The position numbers were made by a program, and so were the translations under genes. DNA of 44,605 nt from Shigella phage DS8. Where the stretch lies: sequence record MK759854; one strand, given 5' to 3'. Under the pieces are notes generated by a model. The model saw only the letters and a program-made list of their open reading frames with translations. It ran no database searches and was not told the DNA's origin. Within the stretch, counting starts at the first letter, position 1; each line of letters opens with the position of its first letter. Positions 2,366 to 8,852 of this stretch are shown here, piece after piece.

Positions 2366-2440
2366 ATAAAGCCGCACTTGGCGGCCTTATTGCTGGTTTA
2401 AGTATTGCCAGCGTGCTTTCTTAACATCCAGCCCAGTAAC

Positions 2441-2470
2441 CCATACATACCCCTACATACCCCTACATAT
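2441..2470. repeat. three tandem 10-mers CCMTACATAY
   Basis: CCATACATAC / CCCTACATAC / CCCTACATAT read directly, inside the 840-bp ORF-poor region. Confidence 0.6.
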
Positions 2471-3127
2471 GATTGCGATAATGCTGGATGTTAAGTGTTG
2501 TGGTGGCCGGTGTCGAACTCCGGCGTGACGGGATTTTCAGTTCAAGGCTTGCAGCGACCGCCTTATACACTACCTCGCCATCGGTTGCTTACTTGCGCAT
2601 CGACCTGCGCATTCACCACAACGGTAAGAGCACTGGCTAACCAGGCGCGCCGACTCTTCACGATTATCGACTCAATGCTCTTACCTGTTGTGTGCAGGGT
2701 TTCCACCTGCTCCCATCTGTTTTTAAAGTCACTCAGATATCGTCTGGACTTGTTGTGGAGTGGCGCACCATCTCACTCTTGAATGTTAACCCACTCCCAG
2801 CACCTCAACACACACTACGGTTAAGATTATTGCGCGTGTTGTATGGTCTTGCTGGTCACAACGGGAATAGTACTGATGCGCTCACTTGGTACTCCTTAGC
2901 CGTAACCCACGGGCTTCCGGTACATCAATACTATTTCCTGTTATGTTCCCTGACTTATTAATCACACCTCAGGGACGCAGTGCGCCGAATTTGTTTACAA
3001 GGAATCGGAAGACCTTGCTGACTTACAGGCTATTACGCCGCCATCAGAACAACATCATCGTTTGCATTTATCTTTGTGGTCAGTTTCTAAAAACCCGCAA
3101 AGTCGCTCACGAAAACTATCTGAAATA

Positions 3128-3172
3128 CAATCTACACCACAAAATAATCACTGTCAACACCTGTGATATAAT
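3128..3172 (+). promoter_or_regulatory. putative promoter for major tail gene: motif CAATCTACACCAC plus extended -10 TGATATAAT
   Basis: Conserved motif at 3128-3140; TGATATAAT at 3164-3172; ATG at 3209 with GGAG RBS. Confidence 0.4.
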
Positions 3173-3208
3173 CACCACGTTAGCAGCTAACACAATTCGG
3201 AGATCGAA

Positions 3209-3925
3209 ATGGCTATTTGTGCAAATGATAAAGGCGTTCTTGTCGGTCGCATGACTCGACTATTCCTTGCTGAAGGGTGCGGTGACGCAGTTCCTGATGC
3301 AGAAGACTGGAAGTATTTAGGTTCAACCACAAGCAAAGGTGTTGACTACTCTCCGCAGACTACCACGTCTGAAGCGGATACCGCTGGCGGCTTTGTTTCC
3401 ACTCTCGTTACCAGCTCTGATATGACCATCAGCGCAGAGGTTGAAATCCGCAAGAATGACCCAAGCGATGAGTTTGGCTTCCATCGTCTGGTTGAGATTT
3501 ACGCCACTGAACTGAAAGCGCGTCGCCAGCCTTCCTTGTGGGTGCGTGAAGTAACTGGCGCGACTATCGTTACTGCGTACTGCAACATTACCAGCATCAG
3601 CTACGAAGGCGGCACAAACGACATCGTAACCGGCAGCCTTGAGTTCAAGGTTTACGATTCAGATAGCGTTACCGTCGAAAGCCTTGAGCCTCTGGCATTC
3701 ACTACCGACCTGCAATCAACTGGCAGCACTGGCAGCCCGTTAACTGTTGCTGTTGAGGGTGGTGTTGCTCCTTACACTTACGTATGGCGCAAAGATGGCG
3801 TGGTTGTTGGTGGTGAGTCTGGCGCATCGCTGACAAGTCCTACTGCTGGTGTATATACCGTTACGGTCACGGATTCGTCCACTGACCCGGAAATTATTAT
3901 CAGCACGGCTTGCACCGTATCCTGA
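3209..3925 (+). CDS. major tail protein with C-terminal Ig-like domain
   Basis: 238 aa; GGAG RBS; C-terminal segment (TVAVEGGVAPYTYVWRKDGVV...YTVTVTD) typical of Ig-like domains on siphovirus major tail proteins; lies upstream of chaperone and tape measure. Confidence 0.75.
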   Translation: MAICANDKGVLVGRMTRLFLAEGCGDAVPDAEDWKYLGSTTSKGVDYSPQTTTSEADTAGGFVSTLVTSSDMTISAEVEIRKNDPSDEFGFHRLVEIYATELKARRQPSLWVREVTGATIVTAYCNITSISYEGGTNDIVTGSLEFKVYDSDSVTVESLEPLAFTTDLQSTGSTGSPLTVAVEGGVAPYTYVWRKDGVVVGGESGASLTSPTAGVYTVTVTDSSTDPEIIISTACTVS

Positions 3926-3926
3926 T

Positions 3927-3960
3927 AAAGAAAAAGCCCCGAAAGGGGCTTTATTTTATT
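3927..3960. terminator. bidirectional rho-independent terminator
   Basis: Hairpin AGCCCC-GAAA-GGGGCT (3935-3950) flanked by an A-run upstream and TTATTTTATT downstream. Confidence 0.6.
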
Positions 3961-4150
3961 CTTGTGGTGGATCTGGTAACGGCATCCAGTGAGTAACATC
4001 CTGTCGAATAGGAACAACACCGTATGCGTCATCCCATCGGCCTTCGAAATAATACAGAGTTGATATGTCGCCTCCCTTGAAACATGCGAGAACCTCTTGT
4101 TCTGCATTTTCATCCGGCATCTGCTCACTACACTTAATCCACTGGCTCAT
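3956..4150 (-). CDS. DUF551-like phage protein
   Basis: 64 aa; motif W..C.E.MP...(x)...HWMPLPDPP matches the DUF551 pattern as I recall it; start overlaps upstream stop (ATGA). Confidence 0.55.
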   Translation of the reverse strand: MSQWIKCSEQMPDENAEQEVLACFKGGDISTLYYFEGRWDDAYGVVPIRQDVTHWMPLPDPPQE

Positions 4151-4461
4151 AATTTATCCTCATTCATTTTAAGGAAGACGATCATGGCGGCGCGTAGTGG
4201 GTTTCCATGCTGGCAAATAAACACATCATCACCACGGAACATCATTACTGCACTATTTGTTGCCAACGGACAATCTTGTCCATTATTTTGAATGACGTCA
4301 ATTTCATACTCAACAATAATGGGCCACGCATCAGCTGGGTTTTGGCATGGATTCCACTTGCCAGAATGTATTTCATGCGCAAATGATTTTGAAGTCCAAT
4401 TGCTAGCCTTTGCTACTTCGCAGTTAATTTCAAAATCACTCATGTCTTCATAATTTTTCAT
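4147..4461 (-). CDS. hypothetical protein
   Basis: 104-aa ORF, translationally coupled at both ends. Confidence 0.45.
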   Translation of the reverse strand: MKNYEDMSDFEINCEVAKASNWTSKSFAHEIHSGKWNPCQNPADAWPIIVEYEIDVIQNNGQDCPLATNSAVMMFRGDDVFICQHGNPLRAAMIVFLKMNEDKL

Positions 4462-4601
4462 ATCACCTTATCCTCATCAAAAATCACACCAATTACACGA
4501 AGCAAGTCTTTCGCCATTCTCTCTGCTTCTTCGTAGTCATAACCTGCATCAACATACAGTTCAGTGTAGAAAATCAGATCAGCTTTTGTTTGTTCGTTCA
4601 T
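4458..4601 (-). CDS. small acidic protein (47 aa), hypothetical
   Basis: ORF found by hand below the 60-aa track cutoff: MNEQTKADLIFYTELYVDAGYDYEEAERMAKDLLRVIGVIFDEDKVI; ATGA overlaps on both sides. Confidence 0.3.
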   Translation of the reverse strand: MNEQTKADLIFYTELYVDAGYDYEEAERMAKDLLRVIGVIFDEDKVI

Positions 4602-4804
4602 TTCTTATCGTCGCTCTTAACTAACGCCCAGACGAGTGCTGCAACCCATCCAATAAAGCTCCATCCAACGAGAATATTCAGAACGCAAATTGCCGTAGTG
4701 TTTACATGCTTGCGTTGCAGGGCTACAAAAGATGGTAGAAGGTACACAAATATCACCAAACCAACGAAAAACAACAAAATAACAACATCCATAGCTAACC
4801 TCAA
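4598..4804 (-). CDS. small two-pass membrane protein resembling superinfection-immunity (Imm-like) proteins
   Basis: 68 aa; two hydrophobic helices with pattern ...AICVLNILVGWSFIGWVAALVWAL...; family resemblance is from memory. Confidence 0.5.
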   Translation of the reverse strand: MRLAMDVVILLFFVGLVIFVYLLPSFVALQRKHVNTTAICVLNILVGWSFIGWVAALVWALVKSDDKK

Positions 4805-4824
4805 CTGTTAATAGCTTGTTTATA

Positions 4825-5118
4825 TTACATGCCATTCTTTTCGCACAAAGCAACAGCCACATCACGCAATTGCTCTTTTGTCATATCCTTGCGTGCATAA
4901 ACCATTTCTACGATGGCAAGGCCGATTATTTCTGCTGATTCGTTGTTTTTTGCGGAACCCTTAACTACCACCTCGGCAAGATTCTTGCTGATACCGTTAT
5001 CGCGAACTTCAGCTGTGTTCATGGCGATATCTCCGATGTTTTTGCAAACCTCAGATGTTGCGACAGCAGAGAAAGAAGAAGCTAACAAGACAGACGCGAT
5101 CAACATTTTAATTTTCAT
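4825..5118 (-). CDS. small secreted/periplasmic protein, hypothetical
   Basis: 97 aa; N-terminal signal-peptide-like segment MKIKMLIASVLLASSFSAVA; GAGGTGAG RBS; first gene of the antisense island. Confidence 0.45.
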   Translation of the reverse strand: MKIKMLIASVLLASSFSAVATSEVCKNIGDIAMNTAEVRDNGISKNLAEVVVKGSAKNNESAEIIGLAIVEMVYARKDMTKEQLRDVAVALCEKNGM

Positions 5119-5154: not shown

Positions 5155-5206
5155 TTGAATCTACATCACCACCTCACAGGTGTCAACACCACTGAGATGA
5201 TATAAT
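5155..5206 (+). promoter_or_regulatory. putative promoter/operator: motif TTGAATCTACATCACC, palindrome GGTGTCAACACC, extended -10 TGATATAAT
   Basis: Elements read directly at 5155-5170, 5179-5190 and 5198-5206; lies between divergent genes (5118 leftward, 5227 rightward). Confidence 0.4.
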
Positions 5207-5226: not shown

Positions 5227-5943
5227 ATGCAAAACATGAGCAATCGCACGCCACTAACAGAAATCGGAGAGATGCGCATCTCGCTTTCTGACAGGAGTTT
5301 TTTCTTTAAACCATCATTCCGCGCCATGAATGAAATTGGCACACCAAAAGAAATCGTTGAGGTGTACGCTAAGCTCAATGGCATTGATTATGTTGCGCCA
5401 TTGCAGCACGTCGAATACCTGCCATTTGGCGCGCAGATGCAGGTTATGAAGACAATCAGCAAGCCAGTGTATGGTCGACATGTGCTGAACGCGGCCTATA
5501 TTGTCATGCAGTCATGTTGTGAGGATGATATTTCTGTGCTGATTGGTGGATGGAAGCCAACACCGCGCGGCGTGCGATATGTTCCCGGCATCATGCCGGT
5601 GAGTGACATTATTATTATTGCGCGCAATCTGATGCAGCATGGCATCATTGGCAAGTCACCGCTCAAGGTTCCTGAGCGTCTGGAAGAGCAGGGCAAGAAA
5701 ACTACAAACGAGTTTCATGCGTCGCAATACATTATTTCAGCACGCACGCATTTCGACATGACGCGCGATGAGGCAGAAAACCTGTCCATGACAGAGTTTC
5801 AGATGATGATTAAGAATAAATACCCAGAGCCGAAAGGGTTAACGAAAGAGGAGCGCGCGGCAGAGTACGATCAGGCTAAAGCAGACCGCGAGCGCATGAA
5901 GGCACTGGCTGAACGCAAAGCGAAAAAAGCGAGGAATACATAA
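5227..5943 (+). CDS. putative tail assembly chaperone
   Basis: 238-aa ORF immediately upstream of and coupled to the tape measure gene (TAATG); positional assignment. Confidence 0.45.
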   Translation: MQNMSNRTPLTEIGEMRISLSDRSFFFKPSFRAMNEIGTPKEIVEVYAKLNGIDYVAPLQHVEYLPFGAQMQVMKTISKPVYGRHVLNAAYIVMQSCCEDDISVLIGGWKPTPRGVRYVPGIMPVSDIIIIARNLMQHGIIGKSPLKVPERLEEQGKKTTNEFHASQYIISARTHFDMTRDEAENLSMTEFQMMIKNKYPEPKGLTKEERAAEYDQAKADRERMKALAERKAKKARNT

Positions 5944-8851
5944 TGGCTGAAGAAGTCGGCGGAATTGTCTATGAAGTCGGGATGGATGTATCCGGGCTTA
6001 AAGCTGGCACAAGTTCAGCGGAATCAGAATTATCAAAATTTGACTCTGCTGTAAGTGGCTCCACGAAGAATTTAAATAAACTTGATGGTCAGGCTGATTC
6101 AACTGGCAAGGCATTCTCCTCCCTTGTCTCCGTGGTTAAAAGCATTGATGCCACACTCAGCAAGATGGCTGCCTCCAGTGATGGTGCAGCAAGCGCTGTC
6201 AAATCAACATCGCAATCTGCCGAGTCAGCCAATCAGGTTATCGACGCGCTAAACCAGCAACTGGCTATGATGCAGCAACAGCAGCAGCAAGCTGCTGTAT
6301 CTACTGGCAGACTGGAAACCTCAATTAATGCCGTCACCTCAGCCATTCGCGAGCTTGGAACATCAACTGGCGGCGCTGGCGCAAGTATATCTGGCACAGA
6401 AAGATTAATTGAAAGCCTCGGAAATCAGGTTGCCATCCTTGAAGAGCAAATGGAAAACGGCGCGAGAAGTGCGGCAATTCTTGCAGCACAACTCAGAGCT
6501 GGAGATGGCGCAACTGACGCACAAAAGGCCAAGATTGCTGAACTGACTGGTCGCCTGTACGACATGAAAAACGGTACGGAGTCGGCTGGCAAATCCACAA
6601 ACGGATTCAGGAACGCACTACAACAGGGTGGTTATCAGGTTCAGGACTTTATTGTTCAGGTTCAGGGTGGGCAGTCTGCGCTTGTTGCATTCAGTCAGCA
6701 GGGTTCGCAACTTGCATCTGTATTTAGTCCGGTAGCTGGCGCAGTGTTGACAATAGCGACAGTTATTGCTGGCTCTCTGATGGCTTCACTGAGTAATGGC
6801 AAGAATGCCATTGACGCCATGAAAGATGCCATTTCTGCAATGGATCAGGTTATCAGCGTTTCAAGCAATGGCGTGGCGGCATACTCAGATAAGTTTGCAG
6901 CACTGGCAAAAGCCAACACAACCGTTGCAACACTGATGCGCCAGCAAGCGCAACTTGAACTTTCAGCGGCGCTCTCAAAGGTATCTAAGGAAGTATCTAA
7001 GGCATCCGGTGAGTTTGTCACGTTTGGCGATCGTCTTTTTGCTTCATTGTCAGGAGCTAATGTCAGCGTTAAATCGTTTAATGATTATCTGTCCATGCTG
7101 AACATCACCACCAATGATTTCGGTGAAGCGATGAAGCAGGCCGCATCGGCTGGACTTGCTGGTCAATCAACGATGAACAGCATGATTGCCACCGTTGGCG
7201 CTCTTGCGAGTAGATTTGACCTGACCGACCAGCAGGCTTTCGAGTTCGCCAAGCAGCTCTCTGAAATCGCTAAAAACCCAAGCAACGAGAAACTAAATGA
7301 ACTGATTGTCACACTGCAAAAAGTTGGTGAGGGACAGTCATCTGGTGCACAAAAGGCAAGGGAGTATGCTGCTCGTTTGCTGGAAATCGCCACCACCACA
7401 ACCGATGCAACCATGAGGCTGAAGGCGCTTAAGGAGATGACTGACTCCTTAACGTCAAGTCAGGATAAGGCGCTACAAACTGCTCGCCAGACATTATTTA
7501 TTGAGAAGCAAACTGGCGATGAAAAGCTAAAAGCTCAGGCGTGGCGTGATGCGGAGGCTCAGGGATTAAAGCAGAATACCGCTGCGTTTCGTGAATATTA
7601 CAATGTCAGACTTGAGACATATCGTCAGCAGGAGAAAAATGCACAAGCGGCAAGGGATGAGCGCAATGCAAACAACCAGCTTAAGACTGAACTAAATCAA
7701 CAGGAAACAATCCAGCAGAAATTAAATAAACTGCGGCAGGAGGCTCTACTTGCTGGTCAGGCAGAATCAACAAAAGAACTCTCCCGCGAACAAGCAATTC
7801 TCAACGCGCAGCAATCGCTTGGTAAAGCAGCCACTCAGGAGCAGATAAAACTGGCTGGCGAGTACGCTGCGAAGATTTGGGACCAGAAGAACGCATTGAA
7901 GGAACAGGCGGAAGCGGAGAAAGAAAAGCAGCGCTTAGAAAAGTCATATCAGGGATTACGCGCCATTGCGTTACCAACGACTGGCATTGACAGTGAATAC
8001 CAGCAGCGCATGGCTGACCTTGACGCGTACGCCGCAGCATATCCGCAGAAAATTACGGAGATTGAGCAGACTCGCGCAGCAATTGAGGCGCAATACCGCC
8101 AGCAGAGAATTGACGCCATGTGGCAGGAGTGGAGTCAGCAAAACGCAGCCACACAAGCGGCGGCGGCGGCGTTTGATGCTTTCGGGCAGACGGCTGGAAA
8201 CGCGTTAACCGGTATCCTTACTGGTTCAATGTCTGTATCAGAGGCATTGCGATCAATTGGTTCAAATATTCTGTCCAGTGTTATCAATGCTTTTGTGCAA
8301 ATGGGTATAGATTGGGCCAAGTCAGCTATCATGGGTGCAGCAGGAATGAGCGCAGCTTCTGCGGCGACGATAGCTCAAGCTGAGGCAATATCAGCGGCAA
8401 TGGCTCCAGCGGCAGCAATGACATCACTGGCAACAGCTGGCACAAACTCAGCCCCTGCTATGGCTGGAATATCTGCAACAGTTGGTTTGGCTAAGACACT
8501 CTCCATTGCTGGCGCGCTGAAAAACGGCGGTCCAGCGCAGGAAGGTTCAATGTACAGGGTGGGCGAGAACAACCTACCTGAGATATTCCAGGCATCAAAT
8601 GGTCATCAGTACATGATACCGGGCGACAGCGGGCGCGTAATTAGCAACAAAGACCTTACAGGCGGTGGCAGTGGCGTTGTGGTTTATAATAACGTGATAA
8701 ATAACAGTTCAGCGCAGGTTAGCAGCAGCGCCAGAGATAATGGGGATGGCAGCGTGACAATTGAGACGATTGTGAGTGATATAGAAAACAACGGCCCCAT
8801 CGGGCAAAGCATCGGTAGGAACTACAACGCCAACAGGAGAGCAACAGAATA

Positions 8852-8852
<1 letters not shown>
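5943..8852 (+). CDS. tail tape measure protein
   Basis: 969 aa, Ala/Gln-rich with coiled-coil character, hydrophobic C-terminal third; canonical position after major tail and chaperone genes. Confidence 0.85.

What the first reader, a model, noticed from the sequence alone, without database searches (positions are those of the whole stretch)
3956..5118. Antisense five-gene island embedded in the tail module
Between the major tail gene and the chaperone/tape-measure genes lies a 1.2-kb block on the opposite strand with its own RBSs and ATGA overlaps between every gene pair. It encodes a signal-peptide protein, a two-TM Imm-like membrane protein, a 47-aa acidic protein, an unknown protein and a DUF551-like protein. 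The position and content look like a moron/superinfection-exclusion cassette.
Basis: partly seen in the sequence, partly recalled or inferred. Interest (0 to 1): 0.6.

Follow-up and report, generated by a model that had tools for sequence, protein, structure and literature searches.

The report
Antisense accessory operon carrying Imm
The five backward-facing genes in the tail region are a real, self-contained small operon found in all examined relatives of this virulent phage, and its one recognisable member is a T4 Imm-type membrane protein that probably stops other phages from injecting DNA, so it is an ordinary, already-annotated kind of cassette.

Summary
Five minus-strand ORFs lie at 3956-5118, between the major tail gene and the chaperone and tape-measure genes. 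One detail is wrong: only 3 of the 4 junctions are ATGA overlaps.

The block is a complete transcription unit, with a sigma-70 consensus promoter (5186..5158) and a bidirectional terminator (3933-3952). Both are conserved in all 15 relatives examined, from Skatevirus-like to Roufvirus-like phages.

It is therefore not a sporadic insertion. It is an ancestral antisense slot with mosaic cargo:
- the 47-aa gene is present in 15/15 relatives
- DUF551 in 13/15
- Imm in 11/15
- the exported protein in 10/15
- NinX in 7/15

Imm is a true PF14373 member and keeps the R and W residues that are functionally important in T4 Imm. T4 Imm binds the tape-measure protein. The most likely role is exclusion of superinfecting phages at DNA entry. 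The other four genes have no known function. Interest is low, because relatives already carry this annotation.

A more notable item lies next door (2495-3141, minus strand). It is an unannotated tmRNA-like RNA with the tag ANDDVVLMAA** and a covarying pseudoknot, and it occurs in many enterobacterial phage families.

The parts
5158..5186 (-). Sigma-70-type promoter of the antisense operon, TTGACA-17 nt-TAGATT
   Evidence: Scores 10/12 in the consensus scan. The exact pattern occurs only twice in the window, against 0.02 expected. The hexamers are invariant in all 15 relatives while the spacers vary.
4825..5118 (-). g1: 97-aa exported protein with a signal peptide, a four-helix body and two invariant Cys (C25, C92); function unknown
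   Evidence: Matches phrog_2315, with no Pfam hit. Alignment A1. The AF2 model has pLDDT 76.6 and helices at 21-40, 45-55, 60-75 and 81-94. There is no significant PDB match. BFVD matches are other exported or lipoprotein phage proteins.
4598..4792 (-). g2: Imm-family superinfection immunity protein, 64 aa, with two hydrophobic helices
   Evidence: PF14373 scores 64.7 bits against a cut-off of 27.9, covering the full profile 1-42/42. Also matches phrog_1039. It is 47% identical to a T-even Imm, and R27 and W44 align with T4 R33 and W50.
4458..4601 (-). g3: 47-aa acidic two-helix protein, the invariant core gene of the unit; function unknown
   Evidence: phrog_17424, E=8e-37. Present in 15/15 relatives and in 190 phage records. 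The AF2 model has pLDDT 91.6 and is a helical hairpin. There is no PDB match.
4147..4461 (-). g4: NinX-family protein, 104 aa; function unknown
   Evidence: PF10765, E=2.7e-14. Present in 7/15 relatives at only 42-75% identity.
3956..4150 (-). g5: DUF551 protein, 64 aa; function unknown
   Evidence: PF04448, E=5.6e-14. Present in 13/15 relatives at only 34-47% identity, although the flanks are 91-99% identical.
3933..3952 (.). Bidirectional intrinsic terminator shared by the major tail gene (+) and the antisense operon (-)
   Evidence: An 8-bp stem with a T run on both strands. Conserved in all 15 relatives, and the Roufvirus-like phages carry a stem change that keeps the pairing (GCCCC to CCCCC).
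5182..5206 (+). Divergent plus-strand promoter-like element (GTCAACACC...TGATATAAT) in front of the chaperone and tape-measure genes; back-to-back with the operon promoter
   Evidence: The pattern is found only here and at 3153-3172, against 0 expected. It is conserved in the Skatevirus-like relatives.
5943..8852 (+). Tape-measure protein gene, 969 aa, with a hydrophobic segment at residues 256-286; inferred target of Imm
   Evidence: Annotated as tape measure in relatives. T4 Imm binds the T4 tape-measure protein (bioRxiv 10.64898/2026.03.06.709160).

Best explanation
The block is a conserved, autonomously transcribed antisense accessory operon. It sits in the tail module of a virulent Skatevirus-like siphovirus.

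Host RNA polymerase starts at the consensus promoter at 5186..5158 and reads g1 to g5. The last four genes are translationally coupled. Transcription stops at the bidirectional terminator it shares with the major tail gene.

g2 (Imm) inserts into the inner membrane. By analogy with T4 Imm, it binds the tape-measure protein of an incoming related phage and blocks formation of the DNA conduit. An already infected cell is then not superinfected.

g1 is exported to the periplasm as a disulfide-bonded four-helix protein. It is an independent, optional envelope factor.

g3 is universal. g4 (NinX) and g5 (DUF551) are exchangeable. All three are small acidic cytoplasmic proteins of unknown role. They resemble the small early or 'nin'-type genes of other phages.

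Shown here: the gene anatomy, family membership, the conserved promoter and terminator sequences, and the presence/absence pattern.

Inferred: promoter use and timing, membrane topology, export of g1, binding to the tape-measure protein, and the exclusion phenotype.
For: - ORFs, ribosome-binding sites and overlaps are documented.
- The promoter and terminator were predicted and are conserved in 15/15 relatives, with variable spacers and a pairing-preserving stem change.
- Imm scores above the Pfam cut-off. It is 42-47% identical to T-even Imm and keeps R27 and W44, which correspond to T4 R33 and W50.
- Mutating those two residues reduced T4 Imm activity, and T4 Imm co-purifies with the T4 tape-measure protein.
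- The window's tape-measure protein has a hydrophobic segment at residues 256-286.
- g1 has a signal-peptide-like leader, invariant Cys25 and Cys92, and a confident four-helix model. Its structural neighbours in BFVD are annotated as exported proteins or lipoproteins.
- The slot is ancestral and the cargo is mosaic.
- Relatives are annotated 'immunity to superinfection' at this gene.
Against: - No experiment exists for any Imm of this lineage.
- Imm is missing in 4 of the 15 relatives, and only about 49 phage records hold a close Imm homologue (at least 80% identity), against 190 records for g3. Exclusion therefore cannot be the conserved purpose of the operon.
- T4 is a myovirus, and its tape-measure protein is unrelated in sequence to this one. 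Transferring the mechanism is an analogy.
- Promoter timing cannot be read from sequence.
- Four of the five genes have no functional evidence at all.
Confidence: 0.6

Rival explanations
1. The operon is mainly an early cytoplasmic 'takeover' or counter-defence cassette. Its conserved purpose lies in the universal 47-aa protein g3. Imm and g1 are optional passengers.
For: g3 is in 15/15 relatives and 190 records, at 96-100% identity within the Skatevirus-like group. Imm, g1 and NinX are each dispensable. NinX and DUF551 are families typical of lambdoid early regions.
Against: There is no functional clue for g3. It is a bare two-helix hairpin with no database match. This view is compatible with the best explanation rather than exclusive of it.
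Confidence: 0.25
2. This is a classical moron. It is a recently acquired foreign insertion peculiar to this phage that benefits a lysogen.
For: The block has its own promoter and terminator, lower G+C and a position among the tail genes. It resembles the HK97 gene 15 moron next to the tape-measure gene (PMC3594210).
Against: The unit is present at the same place in all 15 relatives, including Roufvirus-like phages that share only 54-68% protein identity in the flanking genes. Related phages are described as lytic (PMC8425127).
Confidence: 0.05
3. g1 and Imm form a two-layer exclusion pair like T4 Sp plus Imm. g1 would be a periplasmic inhibitor of an incoming tail component, and Imm the inner-membrane block.
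For: g1 is about 97 aa with a cleavable leader, is helical and has two conserved Cys. It is encoded directly upstream of Imm. From my own knowledge, T4 Sp is also a small exported helical protein.
Against: The g1 profile finds no Sp chain among PDB sequences at E up to 10. No Sp entry appears among the 50 Foldseek PDB matches shown, of 63 found. g1 and Imm occur independently: 4 relatives have only g1 and 5 have only Imm. No tail lysozyme was identified.
Confidence: 0.1

Closest known systems
T4 Imm (Imm_superinfect, PF14373)
   Same: g2 is a member. It matches the full domain above the cut-off, has two hydrophobic helices, and is 42-47% identical to T-even Imm. The residues equivalent to T4 R33 and W50 are conserved. 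It probably acts in the same way, by blocking DNA entry through the tape-measure protein.
   Different: It is shorter: 64 aa, against 78 aa in the T-even homologue aligned here. It is encoded in a siphovirus whose tape-measure protein is unrelated to T4 gp29, and it lies next to the gene of its presumed target. No phenotype has been tested.
HK97 gp15 moron (superinfection exclusion, tape-measure dependent)
   Same: Both are small inner-membrane proteins encoded inside the tail operon beside the tape-measure gene, each with its own promoter and terminator (PMC3594210).
   Different: gp15 is YebO-like, a single gene, in a temperate phage and expressed from the prophage. Here the protein belongs to the Imm family, is one of five genes on the opposite strand, is in a virulent lineage, and the unit is ancestral rather than an insertion.
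Annotated 'immunity to superinfection' loci of Skatevirus-like and Roufvirus-like phages (e.g. STGO-35-1, Sa179lw, C1, Akira, KP591P3)
   Same: They share the locus, promoter and terminator. g1-g3 are 85-100% identical in the closest relatives.
   Different: The window's NinX and DUF551 alleles are at most 75% and 47% identical to those of the 15 relatives. One record, ECO111 5-P, matches 59% of the g4-g5 stretch at 94% nucleotide identity.

Membership tests
Imm_superinfect / T4 Imm | Sequence match to PF14373 above the curated cut-off | tested here: met
   64.7 bits against a cut-off of 27.9, E=7e-18, profile 1-42/42. Also phrog_1039 'immunity to superinfection', E=4e-24.
Imm_superinfect / T4 Imm | Small protein with two membrane-spanning hydrophobic helices | tested here: met
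   Kyte-Doolittle windows above 1.6 occur at residues about 1-22 and 39-60 of the 64 aa. Topology was not tested.
Imm_superinfect / T4 Imm | Conservation of residues shown to matter in T4 Imm (R33, W50) | tested here: met
   R27 and W44 are invariant in the alignment with a T-even Imm in which they are R33 and W50. The mutant data are in bioRxiv 10.64898/2026.03.06.709160.
Imm_superinfect / T4 Imm | Blocks DNA entry of superinfecting phage; binds the tape-measure protein | not testable with these tools
   Needs plating, DNA-entry and pull-down experiments.
Moron (Hendrix/Juhala sense) | Own promoter and terminator | tested here: met
   Consensus promoter and bidirectional terminator, both conserved. 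They are predicted, not mapped.
Moron (Hendrix/Juhala sense) | Base composition differs from the neighbouring genes | tested here: met
   41.5% G+C, against 51.6% (major tail gene) and 49.8% (tape-measure gene).
Moron (Hendrix/Juhala sense) | Extra DNA absent from otherwise similar genomes | tested here: not met
   The unit is present in 15/15 relatives. Only single genes within it vary.
Moron (Hendrix/Juhala sense) | Expressed from a repressed prophage | not tested
   I did not search the window for lysogeny genes. The lytic description I read concerns Jerseyvirus phages, not this lineage (PMC8425127). The BASEL paper places the closest relatives in the Skatevirus cluster (PMC11990801).
HK97 gp15 / YebO-like exclusion proteins | YebO-like sequence | tested here: not met
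   The Pfam scan of all five proteins returned no YebO family.
T4 Sp (Spackle) | Sequence or fold similarity of g1 to Sp | tested here: not met
Phage_P22_NinX (PF10765) | Sequence match above the cut-off | tested here: met
   g4 scores 53.8 bits against a cut-off of 22.6.
DUF551 (PF04448) | Sequence match above the cut-off | tested here: met
   g5 scores 53.2 bits against a cut-off of 22.

The most novel reading that the evidence does not exclude
The operon may be a self-exclusion module genetically linked to its own target. Imm, and possibly g1 and the universal g3 as periplasmic and cytoplasmic helpers, would recognise the tape-measure protein encoded immediately downstream on the other strand. 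The shared divergent promoter region would keep inhibitor and target co-inherited, so that Imm alleles and tape-measure alleles co-evolve. More broadly, the major tail gene is bracketed by two antisense units carrying a duplicated promoter cassette. The other unit encodes an undescribed tmRNA-like RNA. The two units might together form an early cell-conditioning programme.
Probability: 0.12. Interest if true: 0.55.

Novelty: new member of a known kind. Interest (0 to 1): 0.3.

Why it matters
For the island itself the value is modest. It shows that a T4-type Imm gene is widespread in a group of virulent siphoviruses used for Salmonella and E. coli biocontrol. It sits next to the tape-measure gene, which a recent preprint identifies as the Imm target in T4. 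This makes these phages a convenient second system to test whether Imm proteins act generally through tape-measure proteins. It also bears on phage cocktails, where related phages could exclude one another. The comparison also defines a recombination hot spot with one invariant 47-aa gene of unknown function.

Tried and rejected
**Searches on the five proteins that gave nothing**
- PDB sequence searches for g1, g3, g4 and g5 gave nothing meaningful.
- Foldseek against PDB gave no match at E<=0.001 for g1 or g3.
- NCBIfam and PADLOC gave only sub-threshold noise.
- An exhaustive HMMER search with g1 found only 9 representatives, all about 100-aa proteins and none informative.

**Ideas rejected**
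- I considered that the block is unique to this phage. Comparison with 15 relatives rejects this.
- I considered g1 and Imm as an obligate pair. Their independent distribution rejects this.
- Tape-measure length does not track Imm presence among the relatives (annotation tables). I did not pursue this further.

**Neighbouring RNA**
- ARAGORN at default settings and Rfam at gathering thresholds find nothing in the window.
- Only relaxed settings reveal it.
- A strict search for a tRNA-like domain fails in most copies.

Full report
**What is there**

The window is a virulent-type small siphovirus genome. Its nearest database relatives are about 90-93% identical in nucleotides. They include Escherichia phages Sa179lw, C1 and Bas79 and Salmonella phage STGO-35-1. 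The BASEL study places such phages in the cluster it calls Skatevirus and relatives (PMC11990801).

Five ORFs lie on the minus strand between the major tail gene and the gene in the chaperone position. The major tail gene is at 3209-3925 (phrog_853, E=1e-85). The chaperone-position gene is a DUF6246 protein at 5227-5943 (E=3e-73), and it is followed by the 969-aa tape-measure gene at 5943-8852.

| Gene | Coordinates | Size | Identification |
|---|---|---|---|
| g1 | 4825-5118 | 97 aa | hydrophobic leader; phrog_2315 |
| g2 | 4598-4792 | 64 aa | Imm_superinfect PF14373, 64.7 bits vs cut-off 27.9 |
| g3 | 4458-4601 | 47 aa | pI 4.1; phrog_17424 |
| g4 | 4147-4461 | 104 aa | NinX PF10765 |
| g5 | 3956-4150 | 64 aa | DUF551 PF04448 |

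One stated detail is wrong. ATGA overlaps join g2/g3, g3/g4 and g4/g5, but g1 and g2 are 32 nt apart.

**It is a transcription unit**

A consensus-like promoter, TTGACA-17-TAGATT, lies at 5186..5158 on the minus strand. A hairpin at 3933-3952 has T runs on both strands and ends both the major tail gene and the antisense unit. The exact promoter pattern occurs twice in 44.6 kb, against 0.02 expected.

In 15 related loci the two hexamers are invariant while the spacer varies. The terminator is also kept. In the Klebsiella and Aeromonas relatives its stem changes from GCCCC to CCCCC with pairing preserved. G+C is 41.5% in the block, against 51.6% and 49.8% in the flanking genes. Use of the promoter and its timing are inferred, not shown.

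**Comparison with relatives**

I fetched 15 loci spanning nine named genera: Buchananvirus, Caminolopintovirus, Segzyvirus, Akiravirus, Deseoctovirus, Skatevirus, Macdonaldcampvirus, Shuimuvirus and Roufvirus. The set also includes unclassified Klebsiella and E. coli phages. I scored the five proteins against them with tblastn.

All 15 loci have an antisense unit at this spot.

| Gene | Present in | Identity to the window |
|---|---|---|
| g3 | 15/15 | 96-100% in the close group; 53-62% in the Roufvirus-like phages |
| DUF551 (g5) | 13/15 | 34-47% |
| Imm (g2) | 11/15 | 92-100% in the close group; 44% in the Roufvirus-like phages |
| g1 | 10/15 | nine at 85-97%, one at 37% |
| NinX (g4) | 7/15 | 42-75% |

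The flanking proteins are 91-99% identical in the same close relatives, which makes the low DUF551 and NinX identities stand out.

Some relatives carry other genes in the slot. LPST10 and BS5 have a 91-aa gene, and pIS4-A has an HNH endonuclease.

Seven relatives have both g1 and Imm, four have only g1, and five have only Imm. The two are therefore independent.

Database-wide counts agree. About 195 phage records carry the locus. 190 carry g3. 115 carry a close g1. About 49 carry a close Imm. The counts are skewed by dozens of near-identical 'seszw' records.

The block is therefore an ancestral slot with one fixed gene and exchangeable cargo. It is not an insertion peculiar to this phage.

**The individual proteins**

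*Imm (g2).* It aligns with a T-even Imm (Dhakavirus MN04) at 47% identity. R27 and W44 are invariant and correspond to R33 and W50 of the T-even protein. A 2026 preprint reports that T4 Imm co-purifies with the T4 tape-measure protein, and that the R33A and W50A mutations reduce exclusion (bioRxiv 10.64898/2026.03.06.709160). The window's tape-measure protein has a strongly hydrophobic segment at residues 256-286.

*g1.* It has a leader ending SAVA|TSE and invariant Cys25 and Cys92. Its AF2 model is a four-helix body (pLDDT 76.6). It has no significant PDB neighbour. It resembles a set of uncharacterised exported proteins and lipoproteins of about 100 aa from many phages. All its sequence relatives lie on contigs the size of these phage genomes.

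*g3.* It is a confident two-helix hairpin (pLDDT 91.6) with no informative match.

*g4 and g5.* They belong to families of unknown function that are common in lambdoid early regions.

Nothing in NCBIfam or PADLOC adds to this.

**Most likely mechanism**

I judge the following at about 0.6. It is an accessory operon driven by the host polymerase. Its one interpretable product, Imm, sits in the inner membrane. It prevents the tape-measure protein of a later-arriving related phage from opening the DNA channel. This is the mechanism proposed for T4 Imm and for HK97 gp15.

The exported g1 is a separate envelope factor. g3, g4 and g5 act in the cytoplasm and have unknown roles.

Because Imm is dispensable in the lineage and g3 is not, exclusion cannot be the conserved reason the unit exists. 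This is the main rival view (0.25), and it is compatible with the first. The 'recent moron' reading is contradicted by the comparative data.

**Novelty**

Relatives already carry the annotation 'immunity to superinfection' at this gene. A paper on Jerseyvirus, a different siphovirus group, notes that those lytic phages all carry an imm gene whose role there is unexplained (PMC8425127). The island is therefore a new member of a known kind, and its interest is low.

**Noticed next door**

The 840-bp ORF-free gap at 2366-3208 lies on the other side of the major tail gene. It begins with a copy of the same divergent promoter cassette (3129-3172).

*Tag reading frame.* On the minus strand the gap reads AUAAAU GCA AAC GAU GAU GUU GUU CUG AUG GCG GCG UAA UAG at 3065-3030. 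This encodes ANDDVVLMAA**. From memory, the E. coli SsrA tag is ANDENYALAA.

*Detection.* Rfam gives sub-threshold tmRNA hits here: RF04321 at 27 bits (E=0.002) and RF01850. ARAGORN finds a tmRNA only at relaxed settings.

*Distribution.* The roughly 190-nt core is conserved and unannotated in many groups.
- Ackermannviridae, Schitoviridae, Ounavirinae and Drexlerviridae phages, and Roufvirus-like phages.
- A lambdoid prophage of E. coli 55989, between the Q antiterminator gene and the holin gene.
- 656 of 5426 E. coli genomes, mostly on non-mobilizable plasmids (the twelve listed are mostly about 80-125 kb).
- At least 119 IMG/VR contigs.

*Tag conservation.* Eighteen tag variants occur. All are 10 codons long, and all have the form AN[DE]...[AV]A followed by a stop.

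*Structure.* I tested a stem that encloses the stop codons and a pseudoknot just downstream, on a 59-sequence alignment. They pair in 98.8% of cells, and 10 of 13 pairs show compensatory changes. Slid controls pair in 26-60% of cells.

*tRNA-like domain.* The prophage copy is 389 nt. It has a 5' strand UGUGGCA, a T-arm GCCGG-UUCGAUU-CCGGC and a 3' strand CGCCACA followed by ACC. Rfam's tmRNA model matches this 3' part at E=4e-6. The window has UGUGGUG at 3141-3135. It appears to have two 3' modules. One ends near 2751. The other has a degenerate T-arm and CACCACA at 2524-2499.

*Caveats.*
- There is no G3:U70 pair.
- The 5' strand lies inside the predicted promoter spacer.
- A simple motif tally finds both halves of this tRNA-like domain in only 30 of 118 copies.

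*Prior description.* No paper in the library contains these tag peptides. A 2014 survey of 543 RefSeq bacterial viruses found phage tmRNAs only in mycobacteriophages, and named two further ones outside that dataset, in Bacillus phage G and mycobacteriophage DS6A (PMC4131195). This looks like an undescribed family of phage tmRNA-like RNAs and deserves its own study.

Noticed in passing
window 2495-3141, minus strand (tag ORF 3065-3030; conserved core 3132-2946): An unannotated tmRNA-like RNA. It has a 10-codon tag, ANDDVVLMAA**, a stem enclosing the stop codons and a downstream pseudoknot (98.8% paired, 10/13 pairs compensatory in 59 sequences). It is present in several unrelated enterobacterial phage families, in a lambdoid prophage (between Q and holin) and in many E. 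coli plasmids. Eighteen tag variants occur, all of the form AN[DE]...[AV]A. The tRNA-like domain is clear in some copies (Rfam RF00023, E=4e-6 in the E. coli 55989 prophage) but atypical, with U1-A72 and no G3:U70. In the window it is degenerate or duplicated. No paper in the searched library holds these tags.
   Followed up: partly
window 3129-3172 and 5158-5206: A bidirectional promoter cassette of about 50 bp is duplicated on both sides of the major tail gene. It consists of TTGACA-17-TAGATT on the minus strand, back-to-back with GTCAACACC...TGATATAAT on the plus strand. The major tail gene is thus bracketed by two antisense units and has its own promoter and terminator.
   Followed up: partly
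window 3135-3141 versus 3129-3157: There is an unresolved conflict. The candidate 5' acceptor strand of the tmRNA-like RNA (UGUGGUG) lies inside the spacer of the predicted promoter. Either the promoter is not the start of that RNA, or the RNA lacks an acceptor stem. Citrobacter phage Moogle also has a consensus promoter (TTGACA-17-TATAGT) directly upstream of the conserved core.
   Followed up: no
window 2366-3208 compared with L002, L004, L006, L010, L011, L015: In relatives the same gap holds minus-strand tRNA genes (Met, Arg, Ser). In some relatives, HNH endonuclease genes flank the gap. The window has no tRNA at all. This gap is a second variable region.
   Followed up: partly
window 3956-4461 (g4, g5): The NinX and DUF551 alleles are at most 75% and 47% identical to those of 15 relatives whose flanking genes are 91-99% identical. 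This points to allele replacement by recombination inside the operon. One record (ECO111 5-P) matches 59% of this stretch at 94% nucleotide identity.
   Followed up: partly
window 2595-2692: This stretch is 94-96% identical to unannotated DNA in the lambdoid phages HK630 and IME10. It forms the long stem GGUAAGAGCA...UGCUCUUACC, which also occurs in the 3' half of the prophage tmRNA-like copy.
   Followed up: no
window 3209-3925: The C-terminal third of the major tail protein (about residues 154-237) matches Hoc-like and Ig-like decoration domains in PHROGs.
   Followed up: no
L018 (Citrobacter phage Moogle, NC_027293.1 61979-65132): The record's tRNA features are listed on the plus strand. 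ARAGORN places all 16 tRNAs on the minus strand, the same sense as the tmRNA-like element. This looks like a strand error in the annotation table or the record.
   Followed up: no
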